This document shows, piece after piece, positions 6,716 through 41,988 of a stretch of 64,000 nt of DNA. This DNA is from Escherichia phage ECOP18. Numbering within the stretch: position 1 is the stretch's first letter; each line of letters starts with the position of its first letter. The stretch lies in the sequence record NC_105825.1, one strand, 5' to 3'. A program made the translations under genes and the position numbers. The notes beneath the pieces are model-generated. The model did no database searches and was not told where the DNA came from. It saw only the letters and a program-made list of their open reading frames with translations.

Positions 6716-6745
6716 TTGGCTTCCCTCTCATTAATTTATATAAAT

Positions 6746-6774
6746 ATTATAACAATAAATAAGAGAGAAAGCAA
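6746..6774 (-). promoter_or_regulatory. sigma70-type early promoter (TTGCTT-N17-TATAAT)
   Basis: Same architecture upstream of gene 6422-6715. Confidence 0.6.
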
Positions 6775-6782
6775 ATGAATTT

Positions 6783-6950
6783 TTAATAAAGTTTAGTCAC
6801 TTCATAAACTATACTACGAGATTCTTTATTACGTTCTATTAAATTAGAATATGCTTTTTCAGCTTCATTTTTAGTATTAAAGTCTATAACGTGGGAGGTA
6901 TTCGCTCTATTTGATTGACTATACCAGATAACTACTAATAATTTAAACAT
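6783..6950 (-). CDS. hypothetical protein
   Basis: ORF trimmed to internal Met so it does not overlap tRNA at 6965. Confidence 0.35.
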   Translation of the reverse strand: MFKLLVVIWYSQSNRANTSHVIDFNTKNEAEKAYSNLIERNKESRSIVYEVTKLY

Positions 6951-6964
6951 AATAGTCCTTAAGT

Positions 6965-7051
6965 TGGTGCTGGGCACAGGATTCGAACCTGTAACGGGAT
7001 TACTCCTCCTGATTACAAATCAGGTGCATTCAACCATTCTGCCGACCCAGC
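6965..7051 (-). tRNA. long-variable-arm tRNA, anticodon reads TGT
   Basis: Perfect T-arm and anticodon stem CCTGA/TCAGG; 15-nt variable region; 87 nt. Confidence 0.5.
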
Positions 7052-7484: not shown

Positions 7485-7560
7485 TGGAGCGGCTAGAGGG
7501 AATCGAACCCTACTCAGCGAGGCTTGGAAGGCCTGCGGCACAACCCGTGTGCTTAACCGC
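7485..7560 (-). tRNA. tRNA-Gly (TCC)
   Basis: Anticodon loop CTTCCAA. Confidence 0.65.
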
Positions 7561-7568
7561 TTATTGTT

Positions 7569-8401: not shown

Positions 8402-8496
8402 TGGAGGTAGGTAAGGGGATCGAACCCTTACACCGTATCACTACGATCAACCGATTTCAAGTCGGAGTCCAGCGCCAGCCATTGGATTGACCTACC
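8402..8496 (-). tRNA. tRNA-Ser (TGA)
   Basis: Type II, 95 nt; anticodon loop CTTGAAA. Confidence 0.7.
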
Positions 8497-9792: not shown

Positions 9793-9824
9793 TTTGCTTT
9801 CCTTCTCAACACTTTATAAGGTAT

Positions 9825-9853
9825 ATTATACAGAGAATTAAGCATAATAGCAA
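9825..9853 (-). promoter_or_regulatory. sigma70-type early promoter
   Basis: TTGCTA-N17-TATAAT upstream of lipoprotein gene. Confidence 0.6.
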
Positions 9854-10002
9854 ATGAATTTTTAATAAATTTACTTATTGTGTAGGCCACCTGGAGGCTA
9901 CCAACCCCACGGCTGACAAAGAAGTTTGCGAGACCTCTCTTAAGTGCCAGAATAGACCCGCCGATCTATCGGAACCTACATAATAAGTAAACTTTATAGT
10001 GT

Positions 10003-13461: not shown

Positions 13462-13539
13462 TGGTGGCTCCCCGAGGATTCGAACCTACGTACCTTCCGG
13501 TTATGAGCCGGGTGCTCATACCATATGAGCTTGAGAACC
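13462..13539 (-). tRNA. tRNA-Met/Ile2 (CAT)
   Basis: Anticodon arm CCGG/CCGG with loop CTCATAA. Confidence 0.55.
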
Positions 13540-16124: not shown

Positions 16125-16165
16125 AATACAGAAAAGCCCGCGCTCTCGTAGGAAACGCGGGCTTG
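16125..16165 (-). terminator. rho-independent terminator after SPFH gene
   Basis: Hairpin AGCCCGCG/CGCGGGCT then T-run on minus strand. Confidence 0.6.
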
Positions 16166-16187
16166 GTTCGAAGATTACGTGTAACTA

Positions 16188-17135
16188 TTACTTGTTACGC
16201 ATATCCATGATCATTTGACCATCGTAGCCAGTACCTACCACAGTCTGAGGTACACCACCTTGATACTTCTGAGCACGGATCATTTCAACTTCCAGTTGTT
16301 TCCAACGAATCATTTCAGGAGTAATGGTACGTTGCAATGCGGCGTTAGCTTCAGCTTCTTTCTTAGCTGCGTACAGTTTAGCATCTGCGTCACGTTCATT
16401 AGCAATAGCTTGGTTGTTACGAGCTTCACGATCTGCTTCTGCTTGTTTAACTTTTTGCTGTGCTTCCTGTTCAACGCGAGCAAGTTCAGCTTTCGCAGCA
16501 TTAACTTGCTCTTCACGAACTTTGGTATTCTGTACCTGTTCCATGATTACTGGCGGCAAGGTAATATCCTGAAGGAATACCTGCTTAACTGTGTAACCAT
16601 ATGGGCGCGCATACTCTTCAACTTCCTGTTGAATTGCAGTTTGCAATTGAGCCTGAATTTTAGCATCAAATAAATCTTGTGCTTTAGGTACAGACTTACC
16701 AAACTCACGAATAGTAGACAGTAATTTTTCAGTTACATACTTGTCTAGTGCCTGATCCTGAGTACCTGCGTTAATACGGTTAATCGGTGCTTTAGAACCA
16801 TCAAACTGCAACATAACAGTCAGGTCAACAGTGGATTTAAACTTATCCTGGCTAGGAACCTGAAGTTTATCTAATTTTACAGCAATATCTTTTGTACTAA
16901 AAGTATCGAAAGATGCAAACGGGTTTACAAGATGGAAGCCCGGCAATACTGGATTAGGGTCTACTTTACCCAGGAATGTTTGGGTTTTAACCGTACCATC
17001 AGAAACAATAGTATATGAATTAAAAGCTAGGATTAAACCTGCTAAACCAACTACAGCACCAATACCCCAACGTTTAATAGTACGAATTACTTTCTGCTCA
17101 GAAGTCAGTTCTTTCATATTTTTAGTAGCAAACAT
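16188..17135 (-). CDS. SPFH/band-7 (stomatin/prohibitin/HflC-like) membrane protein
   Basis: N-terminal TM, SPFH-like core, Ala/Gln/Glu-rich coiled-coil C-terminus. Confidence 0.55.
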   Translation of the reverse strand: MFATKNMKELTSEQKVIRTIKRWGIGAVVGLAGLILAFNSYTIVSDGTVKTQTFLGKVDPNPVLPGFHLVNPFASFDTFSTKDIAVKLDKLQVPSQDKFKSTVDLTVMLQFDGSKAPINRINAGTQDQALDKYVTEKLLSTIREFGKSVPKAQDLFDAKIQAQLQTAIQQEVEEYARPYGYTVKQVFLQDITLPPVIMEQVQNTKVREEQVNAAKAELARVEQEAQQKVKQAEADREARNNQAIANERDADAKLYAAKKEAEANAALQRTITPEMIRWKQLEVEMIRAQKYQGGVPQTVVGTGYDGQMIMDMRNK

Positions 17136-17169
17136 ATATTTCCTTTGTTTTAGTTACAGTTAATAAAAT

Positions 17170-17244
17170 TGGCCGAGGTGACAGGATTCGAACCTGCATA
17201 AAGGAATTTAGAAGACTCCTGCCTCTCCCTTAGACTACACCCCG
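17170..17244 (-). tRNA. tRNA-Arg (TCT)
   Basis: Anticodon loop CTTCTAA. Confidence 0.65.
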
Positions 17245-18041
17245 TTTAAGTATTTTTAAGAACTCTCGTAAAAACTCTTAAAAATACAGACGATACCGGG
17301 AGAGTCATAAGTCTCACTCATTAAGTATTTCAAGACAAAATACAGTAACGTCTATTATTTTCCAGTTTAAGTCAGGGTGACTTAGTGGTTATGTCCTGCG
17401 GTATATTGAGGACTCGGTTAGGCTTGGGGTCATGACTTCCCACCTTTTGCTGCTACTCAACAGGAGTTATCGCGAATTACCTGTGCTATTGTGCACCATT
17501 AGTGACATCTCTCATGTCAGCATTTCCCACTTTGTGGATAGCTTGAAAAACTACTCCGATATGGAGAAAGAACTTCACTATCCTAGAATACCTTCTAAAG
17601 TTCTTCTTTAGCCTGGACATAGTTAAATCGTAATAAAACTATTCAGCAGACTGGTTGGTTAGTCTGGAACCAACTACCGCGTGGTTTAGGCAGTGCGCAA
17701 CTAACCTCGGAAGCTTTTATGTTAAAAGCATCAGTTATCCAGTTCTTACCGACCGTAGGATTCGAACCTACATCTTCCACCAGTTACGGCTTGATAATAC
17801 CAATTATACTAGGACGGCAGTGTTACTACATAAGTGATTTCCACACCCCACTATTTATAAATCAGAGAAGAGTTTAGGGGAGAGGTTTCAGACGCCTCAT
17901 TTTACACGTTCTAGCCACTAACCGGGATTGCCGCCCCCTGTGTACTAGTTTTACAACTAACCCACCGACTCTATTCAATGCGCTCCGGTTGGGATTCTGC
18001 ACTCAGCGTAATCGGCTCGCTGTTCCCTAATTTATGAATAT

Positions 18042-18070
18042 ATTATACAGAATTTATAAGCATTTAGCAA
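18042..18070 (-). promoter_or_regulatory. sigma70-type early promoter reading into ORF-free region and tRNA-Arg
   Basis: TTGCTA-N17-TATAAT; downstream ~800 nt has no credible ORF. Confidence 0.5.
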
Positions 18071-18078
18071 ATGAATTT

Positions 18079-18513
18079 TTAGAAAAATTCACTAGCAATC
18101 AAAGCAGTTGTTTTACCGTCATAACGTCCGGGAAATTCTGCCTTAATAGTTTTCATTAATAGAGCTTTGGTAATACCTGGGTTTAATTTAACCAGTTCTG
18201 CAAAATACTCACGAATCTGAACCTCAGTCAGTTGACTTGGCTGATACTCTTGCAGCATGGAATAAAGCAGTTGCTCATAGTCTACATCAGTAGGAACTTC
18301 CATACCAACTTTAATAGCGCGTTGTTTTGCATTTTCTAGAGCCTTAATCTGAGCTTTCAGATAGGCTACGAACTCGGTTCGAGTAACAATGTCTTTATCA
18401 ATACGTTGCAGATCACCAATCATGGTCTGAAGATTAAGTGCCCGTTCCTTATCACCGTGAGTACGTGCTAGACTAAGTAGTGCACGAAGGGTCATTAGAA
18501 TATTTTCACCCAT
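18079..18513 (-). CDS. hypothetical protein
   Basis: 144-aa ORF. Confidence 0.5.
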   Translation of the reverse strand: MGENILMTLRALLSLARTHGDKERALNLQTMIGDLQRIDKDIVTRTEFVAYLKAQIKALENAKQRAIKVGMEVPTDVDYEQLLYSMLQEYQPSQLTEVQIREYFAELVKLNPGITKALLMKTIKAEFPGRYDGKTTALIASEFF

Positions 18514-18683: not shown

Positions 18684-18751
18684 ATTTCGCTTCCTCTCAT
18701 TAATTTATGAAAGTATTATACAGAAATTTAAGTAGCTAAGCAAGTAAATTT

Positions 18752-19219
18752 TTAAGTTTTAGTGACAACAGGTTTATAGAATGTATGTCCCTTAATCTTA
18801 GTTGTTTTCTTAAACTTCTTTGTCCAGTAAGGTTTATCTTTACCACTATGGAAGTATAGTGCTCCATATGTAGGATCTTGTGGTAAATCAACGTAGTATA
18901 TCACTCTAGCTAAATTCTTAGCGGTTTGCCAAGCCTCATCAGTTTTATCAACTTTTGGTCTCTTAGATACCCAAGAGAACTGGTTAGACTGATATACTAC
19001 TTTACAGTAGGAATCTGGGAATTTACCGGAGTTTACACGGTTTTTAGTAACATGTGCAATCGCCGTCATTCCCTTTATGCCCTCACCACGACTTTCGAAA
19101 TAGATATTTTTAGCAATGCAATCTATTTCTTTTGCATCGTGCGATGCCTGACTACTAAAGCTGAAGGTAAGGGCAGCTACTAAAAGCAAAGCTGCCTTCA
19201 TTCTTTTTACTCCTGCCAA
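18752..19219 (-). CDS. secreted cell-wall hydrolase (SleB/Hydrolase_2-like)
   Basis: Signal peptide; family resemblance recalled from motif NIYFESRGE. Confidence 0.5.
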   Translation of the reverse strand: MAGVKRMKAALLLVAALTFSFSSQASHDAKEIDCIAKNIYFESRGEGIKGMTAIAHVTKNRVNSGKFPDSYCKVVYQSNQFSWVSKRPKVDKTDEAWQTAKNLARVIYYVDLPQDPTYGALYFHSGKDKPYWTKKFKKTTKIKGHTFYKPVVTKT

Positions 19220-19524: not shown

Positions 19525-19966
19525 AATAGCCTCGTTTCATCAATTTAAAAATGTATTATACAGATAACTTAGTAAATTAGCAAATACATTTTTAAATTGT
19601 GAAACTAGTAAACCGATAAACAGCCTAGAGGCGCCACAGGCCATATCTTATGAGCCATGTACCTTTGATCTAGGGTTTGAATCATCAACGAATACTTTGC
19701 ATCTTTTAGCTTTAGAAGTTTAGAAGTTTGAGTTCTTTAAACTTTTCAGCTTTCATACTTAAATGTTGATCTTTGAAGTTGTGTCGGTAATATCAACGAC
19801 GCTTTGTTCTTACGTGTCAGCTTAAAAGGCTGGTGTAATAAACATAATCTCCAATAGATTATACTTTATAGTATGGTCAGCGGTCCTATTTAACCTCGTA
19901 TTTCAACCGCTGCTGCGAGGTAAGATGCTTGGGCTTTCGTCTACCGATTTACTAGCTTTTAAATTA

Positions 19967-20841: not shown

Positions 20842-20911
20842 ATATGTTTTCCTTTTATTGTTTTCTCAAATTTATGAATATATTATACAGAATTTTGAGG
20901 CCGGAAGCAAA

Positions 20912-21613
20912 TCAAATTTTCATTTTTTCGATCATAGCTGCAACACAATAGCTTTCAACTAAGGCATCAAATGCAGGATCATGCTTAACCGGATAGATCC
21001 CATAACGAATAGTGTCCATCTTCTCCATTTTAGCTATTGCCCAGCTAATACCTTCGGTCTCTAGAGCTTTATAACTGTATCCAGCTTGCATCCAGAGATT
21101 ACGAAGAGATCGAACATTACCCAAATTCCAGAATTTCCACGGAACTACCTCTTCATTAGTTCCAGAATGGAACGTGTTTGCAGAGTAGATAGTCATATCA
21201 AACTCTGGGCCATTGCCATAATACAAAGCATTTTCACCTAGAGCCAACTCCATAATATTTTGAGCCATAGAGAAGGCAGCATAGTTTGAGCCTAATTTAT
21301 TAGTGCAATGATGTTTACCATTTTGGAAGGCAATCAGTTTTGGATTACGTTCCTTCATGGCTTCCATAATGTGGATAGCAGACGGGCTATTTTTAGCTTG
21401 ATCCATCCAGAATGCTAGAGTAGATGCTGTAACTTTGGCACCAGAATTAAGCTGATCCTGCACATCCAAAGTAACAAATACTAGATCAGGGTCTTTATCA
21501 ATTCCATGCATAGCCACAAAAGCGAAAGAAGGCATTGCGATATGAGTAGTACCACAATCTCCTGGAGTTCCCAGAGATTCAATATCTAGCATACCAAATG
21601 GTTTTACTTTCAT
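20912..21613 (-). CDS. putative DEDDh 3'-5' exonuclease
   Basis: Exo I-like LDIES near N-terminus and H-x4-D (HDPAFD) near C-terminus. Confidence 0.4.
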   Translation of the reverse strand: MKVKPFGMLDIESLGTPGDCGTTHIAMPSFAFVAMHGIDKDPDLVFVTLDVQDQLNSGAKVTASTLAFWMDQAKNSPSAIHIMEAMKERNPKLIAFQNGKHHCTNKLGSNYAAFSMAQNIMELALGENALYYGNGPEFDMTIYSANTFHSGTNEEVVPWKFWNLGNVRSLRNLWMQAGYSYKALETEGISWAIAKMEKMDTIRYGIYPVKHDPAFDALVESYCVAAMIEKMKI

Positions 21614-22714: not shown

Positions 22715-22797
22715 TATTTGTTTTCCTTTTTGTTTATCAATTTATGAAGTATATTATACGAGAATTTGAAGCGTTTAGCAAATGAATTTTTTAAAAA

Positions 22798-33045: not shown

Positions 33046-33865
33046 ATTAATTATTATTAGCGGTGCAGGTTTGAGTGTTGAAAGTGGTGTACGAGCTTTT
33101 CGTACTGATACTGCTAGTGGTAAAGCACTGTGGGATGATTATGATCTAGAAGAAGTATGTAATATTCATGCCTTTCGTGGTAATTTTTATCATAAAACCC
33201 ATATGTTTTACAACAAGCGTCGTGAAGAGCTAAAAACTGTTGAACCCAATCTTGCACATTTGCGTATTGGTGAATGGTATAAACAATATCCAGGTCAAGT
33301 AGTAAACTTGACTACCAATGTTGATGACCTTATTGAACGTGCAGGCGTTCCACATAGCGACATTCTGCACATTCACGGATATTTAAAAGAGGTTGTTGTA
33401 GCTGACAGCTACAATAGTAGTAATAAACGAATTATTGATGTTGGGTATAACTCTATTGACCCAGATGATTATAAATGGGTTAAACCTAATGTAATCTTCT
33501 TTGGTGAGCATGCTCCAGCATATACAGAAATGTACAATGTTTTTGATGGTATTACCAGTCAAGATATGATCATTGTGGTTGGTTGCTCTAACCAAGTAAT
33601 TAACTTCTACTGGGAATTATTTCCTGTTCTTAATTTGACTGCTGCCAAATTAATGGTAGTTAACTACTATGATAGTGCCCTAGCGACAGAGCCAGGCTAT
33701 CAAGGTATGACTCGTAGTGAGATGTACCAGTTGGAAGAACGCGGTGTCCCTTACTGGAGTAAAGGTGCGGTAGATGCTTTCAGTGATCCTGATTTTATTG
33801 CTCGTGTGGAAGCTCATTTAGAGGGTAGACCTTATATGCTGGGGAACAGACATGTCCATAGTTAA
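33038..33865 (+). CDS. Sir2-family (sirtuin-like) protein, no zinc ribbon
   Basis: NAD-binding motif GAGLSVESGVRAFR and HG (LHIHGY). Confidence 0.6.
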   Translation: MRRLIIISGAGLSVESGVRAFRTDTASGKALWDDYDLEEVCNIHAFRGNFYHKTHMFYNKRREELKTVEPNLAHLRIGEWYKQYPGQVVNLTTNVDDLIERAGVPHSDILHIHGYLKEVVVADSYNSSNKRIIDVGYNSIDPDDYKWVKPNVIFFGEHAPAYTEMYNVFDGITSQDMIIVVGCSNQVINFYWELFPVLNLTAAKLMVVNYYDSALATEPGYQGMTRSEMYQLEERGVPYWSKGAVDAFSDPDFIARVEAHLEGRPYMLGNRHVHS

Positions 33866-40599: not shown

Positions 40600-41010
40600 A
40601 TGACTACTCCAACTCAGTGGACTGATGAACTGTTTGAAAAAATGTCTTCCGAATACGTTGCTCGTATGGAGCAATTCCCAGAGGATGAACGTCCGGGTGT
40701 TAGCATGGAAATTGTTAGCGAAATCGCCCAGGAAAATGGTGTAACTCCGAACGGTTTTCGTATGAAGCTGACTAAAGCAGGTTTGTATATCAAGAAAGCT
40801 GCTGGCTCTGCTTCTAAATCTAGCGCATCTACTGGAGAAAAAGCTTCCGGTGGTTCTCGTACCTCCAAAGCCCAAGCTCATGCTGATCTTCGTTCAGCAT
40901 TCTCTGATGCTGGCTTAGCACCAGATTTTCTGGATGATGCAATTATCGACAAACTGACCGGTAAAGCGGCTGCTCATATGGCAGAAGCAATCCGAGCTAT
41001 CACTAAGTAA
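40600..41010 (+). CDS. hypothetical protein
   Basis: 136-aa ORF behind consensus promoter. Confidence 0.55.
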   Translation: MTTPTQWTDELFEKMSSEYVARMEQFPEDERPGVSMEIVSEIAQENGVTPNGFRMKLTKAGLYIKKAAGSASKSSASTGEKASGGSRTSKAQAHADLRSAFSDAGLAPDFLDDAIIDKLTGKAAAHMAEAIRAITK

Positions 41011-41046
41011 TTTTTAGATAAATCCACCAACAAAAGGAACACAGTT

Positions 41047-41343
41047 ATGACCAAAGCTGAAATTATTGCACAATGTGAAAAATTTGGTGAGTTTTATCTT
41101 CATTACGAGAAACTTCGTCAGAAAGGAACCACGTACCTTCAGGGTACGATGGAATTTGATCCAGCCCAGGATAAATATCTGGCTGAGCGTATTAAACGTG
41201 AACGTATTCGTAAAGCGAAAGATGATGAGATCCTTGTCTTCTCTCGTACTAATGATAGCTTCCGTTTTATTCCTGTCGAGAAAGTCCGTCGTGTGACTAG
41301 CCTCCAGTCAGAGTTAGATCGTGCTTCTCCAGTAGGCCGATAA
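41047..41343 (+). CDS. hypothetical protein
   Basis: 98-aa ORF followed by terminator. Confidence 0.5.
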   Translation: MTKAEIIAQCEKFGEFYLHYEKLRQKGTTYLQGTMEFDPAQDKYLAERIKRERIRKAKDDEILVFSRTNDSFRFIPVEKVRRVTSLQSELDRASPVGR

Positions 41344-41353
41344 GAAACCAATT

Positions 41354-41378
41354 AGCCCCTATATGGGGCTTTTTGTGT
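41354..41378 (+). terminator. rho-independent terminator
   Basis: Hairpin AGCCCC/GGGGCT then TTTTTG. Confidence 0.6.
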
Positions 41379-41393
41379 ATTTGGGATATGTAA

Positions 41394-41699
41394 ATGAGCG
41401 AACAGGTAAATCAAAACTATGATGGACACGTTGATGACCAGTCCATCATACTTTGGGAGAAGGAGGGAGAACAAGTAAGATTAACAGTATCTGAATTTCG
41501 TGGGAATCTATACATGGGTATTCGTTACTGGCTTCTTGATATTAATGATGAATGGTTTCCAACGAAATCTGGCTTCTCTTTTCCTTACACCCTAGAAACA
41601 ACATCACAGCTTTTCTATGCGTTTACACAGATTCTTAGCGAATCTGAGGTTTTACATGAAGTACAGAAACGAGCTGAAGAACTCAAAGCCAAGAACTAG
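41394..41699 (+). CDS. hypothetical protein
   Basis: 101-aa ORF. Confidence 0.5.
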   Translation: MSEQVNQNYDGHVDDQSIILWEKEGEQVRLTVSEFRGNLYMGIRYWLLDINDEWFPTKSGFSFPYTLETTSQLFYAFTQILSESEVLHEVQKRAEELKAKN

Positions 41700-41772: not shown

Positions 41773-41988
41773 ATGAGAGGATTAATCATGGCAATGACAG
41801 TAACACTTCCCAAGATTCAAGCAAAACTTAATCTACTTTCCACAGCACGCATTAATTATCAGGATAACATAGGCACAGTAAATCAAAAGGTGTACAAAGA
41901 TGCGTTTCTGAAAGAATCTGCTGATTTGATGGATATGGTTACACAATATAATAAAGAACTCAAGATGGAAATCGCCGATGATGAATAA
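41773..41988 (+). CDS. hypothetical protein
   Basis: 71-aa ORF behind consensus promoter. Confidence 0.45.
   Translation: MRGLIMAMTVTLPKIQAKLNLLSTARINYQDNIGTVNQKVYKDAFLKESADLMDMVTQYNKELKMEIADDE

What the first reader, a model, noticed from the sequence alone, without database searches (positions are those of the whole stretch)
17250..18040. ~800-nt non-coding transcript region driven by an early promoter
The promoter at 18042-18070 points leftward into a stretch with no credible ORF that ends at tRNA-Arg (17170-17244). It contains a perfect T-arm-like hairpin (17755-17771, GTAGG/CCTAC) without a matching acceptor and a 7-bp stem hairpin near 17662-17685. This looks like a long leader, precursor or ncRNA.
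Basis: seen in the sequence. Interest (0 to 1): 0.5.

Follow-up and report, generated by a model that had tools for sequence, protein, structure and literature searches.

The report
Phage T5 RNAX structured non-coding RNA
The 800-base gap is a real non-coding RNA gene of T5-like phages, already labelled "RNAX, stable RNA of unknown function" in the T5 reference genome; it folds into conserved domains, including an anticodon-less tRNA mimic and a small hairpin also found in unrelated RNA viruses, and its function is still unknown.

Summary
The window is a T5-like phage, 100% identical to T5_ev212 over 17100-18200. The interval 17245-18040 (minus strand) corresponds to the feature that RefSeq T5 annotates as misc_RNA rnaX, "stable RNA with unknown functions". 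It lies between promoter "P 16-17" and tRNA-Arg. The promoter is real: it is one of at least 16 paralogous T5 early promoters in the window. No ORF on either strand survives in relatives.

The hairpin belongs to a complete tRNA-like domain (Rfam tRNA 35.5 bits, cutoff 29). Its acceptor, D and T arms covary, but it never has a 7-nt anticodon loop or an encoded CCA. It sits on a 14-position leader-trailer helix with an invariant G-G mismatch.

Other parts are a 5' hairpin enclosing a variable insert, a 170-nt core, and a 17-bp AU-rich hairpin next to tRNA-Arg. The core is 86% identical between genera, against 44% at third codon positions of the neighbouring gene. The architecture recurs in Tequintavirus, Epseptimavirus, Sugarlandvirus and Hongcheonvirus.

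One 20-nt hairpin motif also occurs just after ORFs in RNA viruses of three RdRp families and in other phages.

The most likely mechanism is a tRNA-operon precursor cut into stable structured RNAs. The existence of the RNA is known; its architecture and the shared motif are not described in the sources I could search.

The parts
18042..18070 (-). Early promoter: -35 TTGCTA at 18070-18065, 17-nt spacer, -10 TATAAT at 18047-18042. The start is predicted near A18035. It corresponds to T5 'promoter P 16-17'.
   Evidence: Consensus scan, 10 of 12 matches. At least 16 paralogous copies in the window share the A-tract, both hexamers and the initial transcribed ATTCATAAATT. Annotated in T5. Conserved in all 35 homologues, identity 0.93-0.94.
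17857..18035 (-). 5' domain closed by helix P1. AUAAAUUAGGG (18035-18025) pairs with CUCUGAUUUAU (17867-17857).
   Evidence: In T5 proper and L007 the same two strands form a simple 12-bp hairpin with an 8-9-nt loop. Compensatory variants are AGAG/CUCU, AGAUG/CAUCU and AAAG/CUUU (DU_PP_V). The single-sequence MFE fold also predicts the helix.
17875..18023 (-). Variable insert inside the P1 loop. It includes the conserved hairpin CAGCG-AGCCGAUUA-CGCUG at 18022-18004.
   Evidence: Absent from T5 proper and L006-L009. Present with a 15-nt indel in the L038 type. Replaced by an HNH-endonuclease ORF in L013, L022 and L023. The hairpin covaries: CAGCA/UGCUG in DU_PP_V.
17844..17851 (-). GUGGGGUG box just 5' of the clamp. 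It is nearly invariant and its role is unknown.
   Evidence: Seven of the eight positions are invariant across 28 distinct sequences, and the remaining one (G5) is conserved in at least 90%. GGGGUG is also present in DU_PP_V.
17825..17838 (-). Clamp helix, 5' (leader) strand AUCACUUAUGUAGU. It pairs with 17743-17730.
   Evidence: The 12 canonical pairs are 99.7% paired in 28 sequences, and 5 show compensatory changes. Across four genera, 7 of 14 positions have changes on both sides, with an invariant G-G at the fifth position. Predicted by the MFE fold.
17747..17818 (-). tRNA-like domain. Acceptor 17818-17812 / 17754-17748. D stem 17809-17806 / 17797-17794. Short 'anticodon' stem 17790-17787 / 17782-17779 with a 4-6-nt loop. 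T arm 17771-17755. No CCA is encoded.
   Evidence: Rfam tRNA 35.5 bits, gathering score 29. Compensatory changes occur in all arms. The anticodon arm is non-canonical in every lineage.
17730..17743 (-). Clamp helix, 3' (trailer) strand ACUGGAUAACUGAU.
   Evidence: See the leader strand.
17713..17729 (-). Hairpin GCUUUU-AACAU-AAAAGC immediately after the clamp.
   Evidence: Two pairs have compensatory changes, and 94.6% of cells are paired. An analogous GCGUA/UACGC hairpin is present in DU_PP_V.
17532..17712 (-). Middle, lineage-variable segment.
   Evidence: Replaced by different sequence of similar length in Epseptimavirus types, with only short strings shared.
17357..17531 (-). Conserved core (M4) with at least 6 hairpins: 17519-17503, 17496-17483, 17482-17462, 17445-17420, 17413-17393, 17388-17362.
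   Evidence: 86% identity between the window and phage bastian, against 44% at third codon positions of the neighbouring gene. 98.2% of cells are paired and 3 pairs are compensatory. nhmmer finds the full core in all the Tequintavirus and Epseptimavirus loci that span it, and finds no core in the Sugarlandvirus loci.
17362..17388 (-). Hairpin motif CCA-CUA-AGUCA-CCC-UGACU-UAAAC-UGG. The exact 20-mer GUCACCCUGACUUAAACUGG is at 17381-17362.
   Evidence: Invariant in Tequintavirus and Epseptimavirus, and single copy in the window. The same 20-mer, with N at one position and A/T (W) at two, occurs in about 20 otherwise unrelated IMG/VR stretches, mostly just 3' of ORF stops. Bacterial genomes give only 8 hits, 7 of them inside ORFs.
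17250..17287 (-). AU-rich 17-bp hairpin with a UACG loop, ending 5 nt before tRNA-Arg. This is the 3' boundary of RNAX.
   Evidence: The 3' segment has z = -4.15. Conserved at 88-93% in Epseptimavirus, Sugarlandvirus and Hongcheonvirus. Pair 5-34 is U-A in T5 and C-G in Sugarlandvirus, and inner G-U pairs become G-C or U-A in L023. In phages with an inserted gene the hairpin stays with RNAX, not with tRNA-Arg.
17170..17244 (-). tRNA-Arg(UCU) with an encoded CCA. It is co-transcribed downstream of RNAX.
   Evidence: ARAGORN and Rfam, 49.3 bits.
16134..17135 (-). Downstream SPFH/Band-7 gene (16188-17135) and the first terminator-like site on this strand (16164-16134). This is the probable end of the transcription unit.
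   Evidence: Pfam Band_7, 64.2 bits. Terminator scan. T5 annotates an 'efficient bidirectional rho-independent terminator' here.

Best explanation
The interval is the phage T5 RNAX gene. A strong early promoter transcribes about 790 nt of non-coding, multi-domain structured RNA, and the transcript continues into tRNA-Arg and probably the SPFH gene.

Shown:
- It is non-coding.
- Its helices and many of its loops are under purifying selection across four genera of Demerecviridae.
- It contains an anticodon-less tRNA mimic mounted on a conserved leader-trailer helix.
- It is bounded by AU-rich hairpins at both ends.

Inferred:
- The host tRNA-maturation machinery cuts the precursor. RNase P would cut at the invariant U(-1)/G(+1) of the tRNA-like domain and at tRNA-Arg.
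- A double-strand- or AU-specific endonuclease (RNase III or RNase E) would cut at or next to the terminal hairpins.
- These cuts would release stable pieces: a 5' domain, the tRNA mimic, and a roughly 500-nt 3' RNA whose conserved core and hairpin motif bind some host or phage factor.

The factor and the benefit to the phage are unknown. The RNA is dispensable in laboratory hosts.
For: - Identity and annotation: the window is 100% identical to T5_ev212. T5 RefSeq annotates rnaX 'stable RNA with unknown functions' between promoter P 16-17 and tRNA-Arg.
- Promoter: it belongs to the T5 early-promoter family.
- Non-coding: every ORF is broken in relatives, and 1-nt indels occur inside conserved blocks.
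- RNA-level selection: in the tRNA-like/clamp domain 92.6% of cells are paired against 33-42% in slid controls, and 15 pairs are compensatory against 1-3. Across genera, 12 of 26 pairs are compensatory. In the core, 98.2% of cells are paired and identity is 86% against 44% at neighbouring third codon positions.
- Same layout in another subfamily: Hongcheonvirus, Mccorquodalevirinae.
- No terminator-like site on the minus strand before 16164-16134.
- U at -1 is invariant (ACACU|GCC). That this is the preferred base for bacterial RNase P is established knowledge, not tested here.
- A leader-trailer helix extending a tRNA-like acceptor promotes RNase P processing of MALAT1/mascRNA (PMC8457004).
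- RNase III has a published role in T4 tRNA synthesis (reference list).
Against: - No transcript or processing data were available. 'Stable RNA' rests on a GenBank note without an accessible paper.
- A 14-position leader-trailer helix and the absence of a 3' RCCA could hinder rather than help bacterial RNase P.
- Eps7-type phages replaced the tRNA-like core with an unrelated hairpin while keeping the clamp. Sugarlandvirus keeps the tRNA mimic but lacks the M4 core apart from the motif hairpin. No single module is therefore indispensable.
- Whole-RNA folding energy is unremarkable (z = -1.48). The clamp domain gives -1.32 and the core -0.43.
- The region lies inside the viable T5 st0 deletion.
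Confidence: 0.6

Rival explanations
1. Cis-acting leader only. The structured RNA exists solely to control the maturation, timing or stability of tRNA-Arg and the downstream SPFH mRNA. Its hairpins would be nuclease entry sites or barriers, and the released pieces would be by-products with no function of their own.
For: RNAX is always immediately upstream of tRNA-Arg, or of a gene followed by tRNA-Arg. The AU-rich hairpin sits 5 nt before tRNA-Arg, or 10-20 nt before an RBS in other phages. The 5' hairpin is at the very start of the transcript. Modules are gained and lost freely.
Against: A processing scaffold does not need about 800 nt. It also does not need loops and single-stranded strings conserved at 86% when synonymous sites have diverged to about 50%. 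The other early promoters in the window drive their genes with leaders of about 20-30 nt. The hairpin motif recurs in viruses that have no tRNA nearby.
Confidence: 0.22
2. tRNA-mimic decoy or sponge. The tRNA-like domain and/or the core sequester a host factor that recognises the tRNA elbow or acceptor, or a defence nuclease. This would protect phage translation in the way T5 tRNAs counter PARIS and retron Eco7.
For: The D-loop GG and T-loop UUCGAAU (the elbow) and the acceptor are conserved with compensatory changes. T5 tRNAs are documented counter-defence agents (PMC11464382; PMC10644984). The region is dispensable in laboratory strains, as accessory counter-defence loci often are.
Against: The anticodon arm is the least conserved part and never forms a 7-nt loop. 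That argues against a decoy for anticodon nucleases. The 5' and 3' ends are locked in a helix and there is no CCA. Eps7-type phages lack the mimic. No experimental link exists.
Confidence: 0.12
3. Genomic debris: a decayed tRNA gene plus scars of homing-endonuclease traffic in the recombination-prone tRNA region, transcribed only because it lies between a promoter and tRNA-Arg.
For: HNH endonuclease ORFs are inserted in this interval in some relatives. There are large indels and module replacement. A 64-68-nt insert flanked by a duplicated motif is present in T5 and L054. AY587007 calls the tRNA-like element a pseudogene.
Against: Compensatory substitutions maintain at least 12 helices across four genera. 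The core and the AU hairpin are far more conserved than neutral sites. tblastn with relatives' ORFs, including the HNH ORFs, found no HNH remnant in the window's insert.
Confidence: 0.04
4. A small protein is encoded, for example the 44-aa ORF at 17486-17620 (minus strand) or the 59-aa ORF at 17432-17611 (plus strand) that some records annotate as hypothetical proteins.
For: Automatic annotations place hypothetical CDSs here.
Against: Each ORF is disrupted in several relatives, including ones 93-99% identical. None has a Shine-Dalgarno sequence, unlike the other early-promoter units. The ORFs overlap covarying RNA helices.
Confidence: 0.02

Closest known systems
T5 RNAX (rnaX, locus_tag T5s08, NC_005859 40848-41566; also AY734508)
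   Same: Same position: promoter P 16-17, then RNAX, then tRNA-Arg, then the Band-7 gene. Identity over the shared parts is 91-99%. This is the same gene.
   Different: The window's copy carries a 149-nt insert in the 5' hairpin that T5 proper lacks. It lacks the 64-nt insert with duplicated motif that T5 proper has in the core. The annotation gives no structure, processing sites or function.
Other 'stable RNAs' of phage tRNA clusters: T5 RNAI, RNAIII, RNAIV, RNA1, RNA2, RNA3 and T4 species 1/2 RNAs (own knowledge)
   Same: Non-coding RNAs co-transcribed with phage tRNAs. Several are tRNA-like, and all are of unknown function.
   Different: Those are 70-170 nt, whereas RNAX is about 720-1300 nt and multi-domain. 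There is no sequence similarity to the rest of the window apart from T-loops.
MALAT1-mascRNA / MEN-beta tRNA-like 3'-end processing modules (PMC8457004)
   Same: A tRNA-like structure without decoding function is embedded in a long non-coding RNA. Its acceptor is extended by leader-trailer pairing, and it is used as an RNase P cleavage signal.
   Different: That system is eukaryotic and nuclear, with no homology. In T5 the clamp is longer (14 positions), is separated from the acceptor by a 6x4-nt internal loop, and cleavage is untested.
GOLLD and ROOL large ornate RNAs of phages and prophages (own knowledge; Rfam families)
   Same: Large (0.6-0.8 kb) structured non-coding RNAs encoded by phages next to tRNA genes. 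GOLLD can carry a nested tRNA. Function unknown.
   Different: No covariance-model match at E <= 10 on the 846-nt interval, or at E <= 0.1 on eight relatives. The host range also differs. This is a resemblance in kind only.
s2m, the mobile stem-loop of astro-, corona-, calici- and picornavirus 3' UTRs (PMC3653767)
   Same: For the 20-nt hairpin motif only: a short RNA element that is nearly invariant in sequence, scattered across unrelated virus families, located after the last or replicase ORF, and of unknown function.
   Different: Different sequence and structure, and no Rfam hit. The T5 motif is shared between DNA phages and RNA viruses. It has not been shown to be mobile or functional.
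Bacterial Y RNA YrlA tRNA-like module (own knowledge)
   Same: A tRNA mimic with conserved D/T elbow and no decoding capacity, attached to a long helix.
   Different: In YrlA, as I recall it (own knowledge), the helix continues from the anticodon side and binds Rsr. Here it continues from the acceptor side. No Rfam match.

Membership tests
tRNA (Rfam RF00005) | Covariance-model score at or above the gathering score | tested here: met
   35.5 bits against 29 at 17818-17747. Relatives score 29.3-38.3 bits.
tRNA (Rfam RF00005) | Acceptor, D and T arms maintained by compensatory change; canonical T-loop and D-loop GG | tested here: met
   Acceptor GCCGUCC/GGUCGGU changes to GCCGAUC/GAUCGGU and GCCCUCU/AGUGGGA. 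T stem is GUAGG, GCAGG or GUGGG with matching partners. D stem shows two double changes. The T-loop is UUCGAAU.
tRNA (Rfam RF00005) | 5-bp anticodon stem with a 7-nt loop (U33, purine 37) able to decode | tested here: not met
   The arm is a 3-4-bp stem with a 4-6-nt loop in Tequintavirus, Epseptimavirus and GlastoCabaret. It is a long extended arm in Sugarland-type phages and a 5-6-bp stem with a 3-5-nt loop in DU_PP_V. ARAGORN gives no call in the window, and Ser(act) or SeC(tca) in relatives.
tRNA (Rfam RF00005) | Free single-stranded 3' end with CCA, encoded or addable | tested here: not met
   The acceptor is followed by (U/A)AAGA and then 14 positions paired with the leader. By contrast, tRNA-Arg encodes CCA.
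T5 RNAX (T5s08) | Synteny: promoter P 16-17, then RNA, then tRNA-Arg, on the early-gene strand | tested here: met
   Searches compared.
T5 RNAX (T5s08) | Sequence homology to the annotated T5 RNAX | tested here: met
   91.5-99% identity over three blocks covering 82% of the query; the remainder is the 149-nt insert.
T5 RNAX (T5s08) | Accumulates as a stable RNA in infected cells | not testable with these tools
   Only the depositors' note exists. No paper was found or readable.
GOLLD / ROOL large phage RNAs | Match to the family covariance model | tested here: not met
   No such hit at E <= 10 or at E <= 0.1 in relatives.
GOLLD / ROOL large phage RNAs | Large structured non-coding RNA in a phage, adjacent to tRNA genes | tested here: met
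   About 790 nt, next to tRNA-Arg and at the edge of a cluster of 21 tRNA genes in the window, with covarying helices.
RNase P substrate (pre-tRNA-like) | T-arm/acceptor coaxial stack with U at -1 and G at +1 | tested here: met
   ACACU|GCC is invariant in 28 sequences.
RNase P substrate (pre-tRNA-like) | Actual cleavage by RNase P; 3' RCCA contact | not testable with these tools
   No RCCA is encoded, and cleavage requires an experiment.
RNase III processing hairpin | Roughly two turns of dsRNA at a boundary between RNAs | tested here: inconclusive
   The 17-bp AU-rich hairpin at 17287-17250 and the 11-bp P1 lie at the two ends. Their length is at the lower limit, and there are no cleavage data.
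Mobile viral RNA element (s2m-like class) | Near-identical short element in phylogenetically unrelated viruses, outside ORFs | tested here: met
   The motif lies within 7 to about 150 nt 3' of ORF stops, mostly 13-56 nt. This holds in contigs with RdRP_4 (L075, 116 bits), RdRP_3 (L078, 299.7 bits) and RdRP_1 (L084, 138.1 bits), in a coat S-domain virus (L063), in an SPP1-portal phage (L081), in a 97-kb phage (L070) and in T5-like phages.
Mobile viral RNA element (s2m-like class) | Membership of s2m itself or another described family | tested here: not met
   No Rfam match. The sequence strings are absent from the literature apart from chance primer hits.
Small protein gene | ORF intact and in frame across relatives | tested here: not met

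The most novel reading that the evidence does not exclude
RNAX may be more than a processing by-product. It could be a family-wide (Demerecviridae) large modular ribonucleoprotein RNA. Two of its conserved parts have not been described: an anticodon-less tRNA mimic held on a helix with an invariant G-G, and a 170-nt core. The core's hairpin motif (A)GUCA-CCY-UGAC(U)-UWWAACUGG may belong to an undescribed, virus-restricted RNA element exchanged between DNA phages and RNA viruses of at least three RdRp families. That would imply a shared and very conserved cellular or viral binding partner.
Probability: 0.3. Interest if true: 0.75.

Novelty: already known. Interest (0 to 1): 0.5.

Why it matters
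T5 is a classic model phage, and its tRNA region is now known to carry counter-defence functions (tRNA-Lys against PARIS, tRNA-Tyr against retron Eco7). Eight 'stable RNAs of unknown function' have stood in its reference annotation without follow-up that I could find, and RNAX is by far the largest.

RNAX is conserved in architecture across four genera. It evolves far more slowly than neighbouring synonymous sites, and it contains a clamped tRNA mimic. Together these turn a vague annotation into a set of testable parts: defined helices, predicted cleavage sites and deletable modules. The existing T5 st0 deletion removes the region along with about 8 kb of other genes.

If the hairpin motif shared with RNA viruses is a genuine common element, it would be a rare case of one RNA element used by both DNA and RNA viruses. 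It would also give a handle for finding the factor it binds.

Tried and rejected
1. Known RNA families. Rfam 15 in E-value mode on the interval, the surrounding 15 kb, eight relatives and three RNA-virus contigs found only tRNA hits. There was no RNase P, tmRNA, 6S, Y RNA, GOLLD, ROOL, intron or riboswitch.

2. Host mimicry. blastn against 5,426 E. coli genomes found no match.

3. Paralogues in the window. Only T-loops of other tRNAs and the promoter family matched.

4. Decayed HNH or other gene. tblastn with all ORFs of at least 50 aa from relatives gave only matches explained by nucleotide homology, in all frames. No HNH remnant was found.

5. Coding potential. Rejected.

6. Whole-RNA thermodynamic signal. 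This was weak (z = -1.48 for the sense strand, -0.32 for the antisense strand). Only the 3' segment stands out (z = -4.15).

7. The search for related loci with the upstream YqeY-like protein returned only 7 close relatives. Diversity came instead from the phage collection and from pattern scans.

8. Literature. There were no hits for 'RNAX' with T5. The Glukhov et al. 2018 deletion paper is not held. The CRISPRi-ART and PARIS papers do not cover this RNA.

9. The FHV RNA2 primer that contains UUGACUUAAACUGG is in the opposite sense to the motif. I judged it a coincidence among chance 13-mer hits.

10. I considered that the hairpin + UAAAC motif might be a solitary CRISPR-repeat mimic (RNA anti-CRISPR). 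It is single copy everywhere. No arrays or intergenic copies turned up in 596 Gb of bacterial genomes. It does not match the E. coli/Salmonella I-E or I-F repeats as I recall them. I did not pursue it.

11. The Pfam search of the upstream gene (18079-18513) found nothing. The 'tRNA amidotransferase/YqeY' label is therefore taken from GenBank records only, and its adjacency is not conserved in Sugarlandvirus.
Full report
**What the window is.** Positions 17100-18200 are 100% identical to Escherichia phage T5_ev212 and several other Tequintavirus genomes. 440 phage records match at megablast level. The window carries 21 tRNA genes on the minus strand between 5.9 and 17.2 kb, the last being tRNA-Arg(tct) at 17170-17244. 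The finding concerns the roughly 800 nt between that tRNA and the end of the upstream gene (18079-18513, minus strand).

**Checking the observation.** The promoter is present: TTGCTA-17 nt-TATAAT at 18070..18042 on the minus strand.
- It is more than a consensus match. A blastn of 18015-18085 against the window finds at least 16 paralogous copies. They share an upstream A-tract, the two hexamers and the first ~15 transcribed bases (ATATTCATAAATT...). In most of the other copies an RBS and ATG follow within about 20-30 nt.
- This copy has no such RBS and ATG.
- All seven ORFs of 25-60 aa in the interval, on either strand, are interrupted in relatives, several of which are 93-99% identical.
A 7-bp hairpin (GUUGGUU/AACCAAC, 17674-17654) lies close to the second stated position.
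Rfam's tRNA model scores 17818-17747 at 35.5 bits against a gathering score of 29, with acceptor GCCGUCC/GGUCGGU. Several GenBank records call it tRNA-OTHER or a pseudo-tRNA.

**It is already annotated.** The T5 reference genome NC_005859 and the Pushchino fragment AY734508 annotate exactly this interval as misc_RNA rnaX (T5s08), 'RNAX, stable RNA with unknown functions', 719 nt. It is preceded by 'promoter P 16-17' and abuts tRNA-Arg.
- It is the largest of eight 'stable RNAs' annotated in the T5 tRNA region.
- The notes on the st0 deletion end points (33667-33683 and 41882-41891) place RNAX (40848-41566) inside a deletion carried by a viable laboratory strain.
- I found no paper describing RNAX.

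**Modular anatomy from comparison.** I compared 35 distinct full-length homologues plus further partial loci. The RNA is a mosaic of conserved modules separated by replaceable segments.

1. *5' hairpin P1.* The first transcribed bases AUAAAUUAGGG (18035-18025) pair with CUCUGAUUUAU (17867-17857). In T5 proper this is a plain 12-bp hairpin. In the window a 149-nt insert (18023-17875) sits in its loop. In some Epseptimaviruses an HNH endonuclease ORF replaces this part. The stem changes in a compensatory way: AGAG/CUCU, AGAUG/CAUCU, and AAAG/CUUU in the Pectobacterium phage.

2. *GUGGGGUG box.* It is nearly invariant and lies at 17851-17844.

3. *Leader-trailer clamp.* This is a 14-position helix (17838-17825 with 17743-17730) that carries the tRNA-like domain at its tip, separated from it by a 6x4-nt internal loop.

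4. *Covarying hairpin.* It lies at 17729-17713.

5. *Lineage-variable middle segment.* It spans 17712-17532.

6. *170-nt core.* It spans 17531-17357 and has at least six hairpins.

7. *Variable spacer.* About 70 nt.

8. *AU-rich hairpin.* It is 17 bp with a UACG loop (17287-17250) and ends 5 nt before tRNA-Arg.

**Strength of the RNA-level evidence.**
- *tRNA-like/clamp domain, 28 distinct sequences.* 92.6% of cells form standard pairs, against 33-42% when partners are slid by 1-3 columns. Fifteen of 38 pairs show changes on both sides, against 1-3 in the slid controls. No shuffle out of 500 reaches the observed covariation score. The clamp's 12 canonical pairs are 99.7% paired.
- *Eight representatives including a second subfamily.* With Pectobacterium phage DU_PP_V (Mccorquodalevirinae) added, 12 of 26 pairs are compensatory. 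The fifth clamp position is a G-G mismatch in all eight.
- *Core and AU hairpin.* 98.2% of cells are paired with three compensatory pairs. Variation is low because the sequence itself is highly conserved.
- *Rate comparison.* Between the window and Salmonella phage bastian, the neighbouring protein gene is 54% identical in amino acids, 44% at third codon positions and 54% at four-fold sites (15 of 28). The core is 86% identical, the AU hairpin 88%, the tRNA-like/clamp domain 79% and the variable spacer 26%.
- *Single-sequence folding.* It reproduces the clamp, cloverleaf, P1 and AU hairpin. Thermodynamic z-scores are modest except for the 3' segment at -4.15.

**The tRNA-like domain is a mimic, not a decoder.** Its acceptor, D stem, T stem, D-loop GG and T-loop are maintained. 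The 'anticodon' arm differs by lineage:
- a 3-4-bp stem with a 4-6-nt loop in Tequintavirus, Epseptimavirus and GlastoCabaret;
- a long two-part arm in Sugarland-type phages, whose tip covaries (GGGGA/UCCCC against GGAGA/UCUCC);
- a 5-6-bp stem with a 3-5-nt loop in DU_PP_V.

No CCA is encoded, and the 3' trailer is paired. The base before the domain is an invariant U (ACACU|GCC). Eps7, S116 and SpoonbillGilly have replaced the cloverleaf with an unrelated ~48-nt hairpin while keeping the clamp.

**Transcription unit and likely mechanism.** No terminator-like site was found on the minus strand between the promoter and the one at 16164-16134, which lies beyond the SPFH/Band-7 gene. T5 annotates that site as an efficient bidirectional terminator. 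RNAX is therefore the 5' ~790 nt of a transcript that continues into tRNA-Arg and probably the SPFH mRNA.

My best inference is that host tRNA-processing enzymes dissect this precursor. RNase P would cut at the tRNA mimic and at tRNA-Arg. An endonuclease would cut at or beside the AU-rich terminal hairpins. The structured pieces would persist as the 'stable RNA' the depositors noted.

The closest mechanistic precedent is MALAT1/mascRNA, where leader-trailer pairing that extends a tRNA-like acceptor promotes RNase P cleavage (PMC8457004). Every cleavage step is inferred and none is shown. The degree of sequence conservation in loops and joining strands suggests that at least the core binds something, but I cannot say what.

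**An unexpected link.** One hairpin of the core, CCA-CUA-AGUCA-CCC-UGACU-UAAAC-UGG (17388-17362), is invariant in Tequintavirus and Epseptimavirus. It is present with a compensatory outer pair in Sugarlandvirus and in diverged form in DU_PP_V.
- *Scan of IMG/VR.* Searching for the 20-mer with one free (N) and two A/T (W) positions returned the T5-like phages. It also returned about 20 otherwise unrelated stretches in some 12 sequence groups.
- *Position and hosts.* In nearly all of them the motif is in the coding sense, 7 to about 150 nt (mostly 13-56 nt) after an ORF stop. It is often near the 3' end of small contigs. These contigs encode RdRp of three different Pfam families: RdRP_4 at 116 bits, RdRP_3 at 299.7 bits and RdRP_1 at 138.1 bits. 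One has an S-domain coat protein. Others are DNA phages: one with an SPP1-type portal, and a 97-kb contig where the motif precedes an RNA ligase gene.
- *Control in bacterial genomes.* In 596 Gb of bacterial and archaeal genomes the same pattern gives 8 hits. I estimate about 17 by chance, assuming equal base frequencies. Seven of the 8 lie inside long ORFs. The strict 21-mer gives none.
- *Other checks.* The motif is single copy in the window. It matches no Rfam family and does not appear in the searchable literature.
- *Local rearrangement.* In T5 proper and in one metagenomic T5-like contig the motif is duplicated around a 64-68-nt hairpin insert.
- *Interpretation.* I regard the sharing as real but unexplained. 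The nearest concept is s2m (PMC3653767).

**Verdict.** The existence of the RNA is already known, because the locus is the annotated T5 RNAX. Four things appear undescribed in the sources I could search: the family-wide architecture, the clamped anticodon-less tRNA mimic, the slow-evolving core, and the hairpin motif shared with RNA viruses. These raise the interest above that of a routine re-identification, but function and processing remain untested.

Noticed in passing
window 13465-13539 (-), 8406-8496 (-), 7488-7561 (-): Three further tRNA-like matches that ARAGORN does not call: Rfam tRNA at 40.3 bits, and tRNA-Sec model hits at 37.6 and 31.1 bits, both below that family's cutoff. They probably correspond to the 'tRNA-like stable RNAs' RNA1, RNA2 and RNA3 annotated in T5.
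   Followed up: no
window 2193-51722, at least 16 sites (e.g. 22739-22791, 20863-20920, 18701-18754, 19542-19594, 9822-9864, 6732-6785): A family of early promoters shares about 55 nt: A-tract, TTGCT(A/T), TATAAT and the initial transcribed ATTCATAAATTGAG. In most copies an RBS and ATG follow. The RNAX copy is unusual in lacking an RBS. AY587007 labels the RNAX copy 'repeat c copy 3'.
   Followed up: partly
L004/L018 (T5 proper) and L054; equivalent to window ~17360: A 64-68-nt hairpin-forming insert is flanked by a ~23-nt direct duplication of the motif hairpin AGTCACCTTGACTTAAACTGGAA. It resembles a target-site duplication or a slipped duplication inside the RNAX core.
   Followed up: partly
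L013 1373-1855, L022 906-1388, L023 1173-1655 (relatives); equivalent to window 17875-18023: An HNH homing-endonuclease ORF (annotated 'putative H-N-H-endonuclease P-TflX' in L013) occupies the position of the 5' hairpin and insert in some Epseptimaviruses, directly behind the same promoter. A 170-aa ORF is inserted between RNAX and tRNA-Arg in L013 and L023, and L011 has an insertion of similar size at the same place.
   Followed up: partly
L015, L024, L025 (Eps7, SpoonbillGilly, S116): The tRNA-like cloverleaf is replaced by an unrelated ~48-nt hairpin (GCCAGA...UUCUGG), while the flanking clamp strands are kept.
   Followed up: yes
L016, L017 (Klebsiella Sugarlandvirus): The RNAX-equivalent interval is about 1.3 kb and is annotated with five to six 54-65-aa hypothetical proteins, some of which overlap the tRNA-like domain. 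These calls may be spurious ORFs on non-coding RNA.
   Followed up: no
L070 11186-11208 (97-kb IMG/VR phage contig): The motif, plus a further ~12 nt shared with T5 (AAACUGGA..AUAAUAGA), lies between a small gene and an RNA ligase gene (Pfam RNA_ligase at 71.5 bits and a PHA02142 OB-fold at 112.6 bits). A terminator-like hairpin follows it.
   Followed up: partly
L053, L058 (metagenome contigs): The pattern built from the T5 tRNA-like acceptor and T arm also hit two sequences that, read by eye, look like ordinary tRNA-Thr(UGU) genes (GCCGACC...GGUCGGC-U-CCA). This suggests the mimic's acceptor is Thr-like in origin.
   Followed up: no
window 6965-7051 (-): ARAGORN reports tRNA-Thr(tgt) as 87 nt, whereas T5's annotated tRNA-Thr is 75 nt. 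This may reflect an insertion or a boundary difference.
   Followed up: no
window 18079-18513 (-): Many records label the gene upstream of the promoter 'tRNA amidotransferase / YqeY domain', but it has no Pfam match at E <= 0.001. Its adjacency to RNAX is lost in Sugarlandvirus, where an endolysin gene precedes the promoter.
   Followed up: partly
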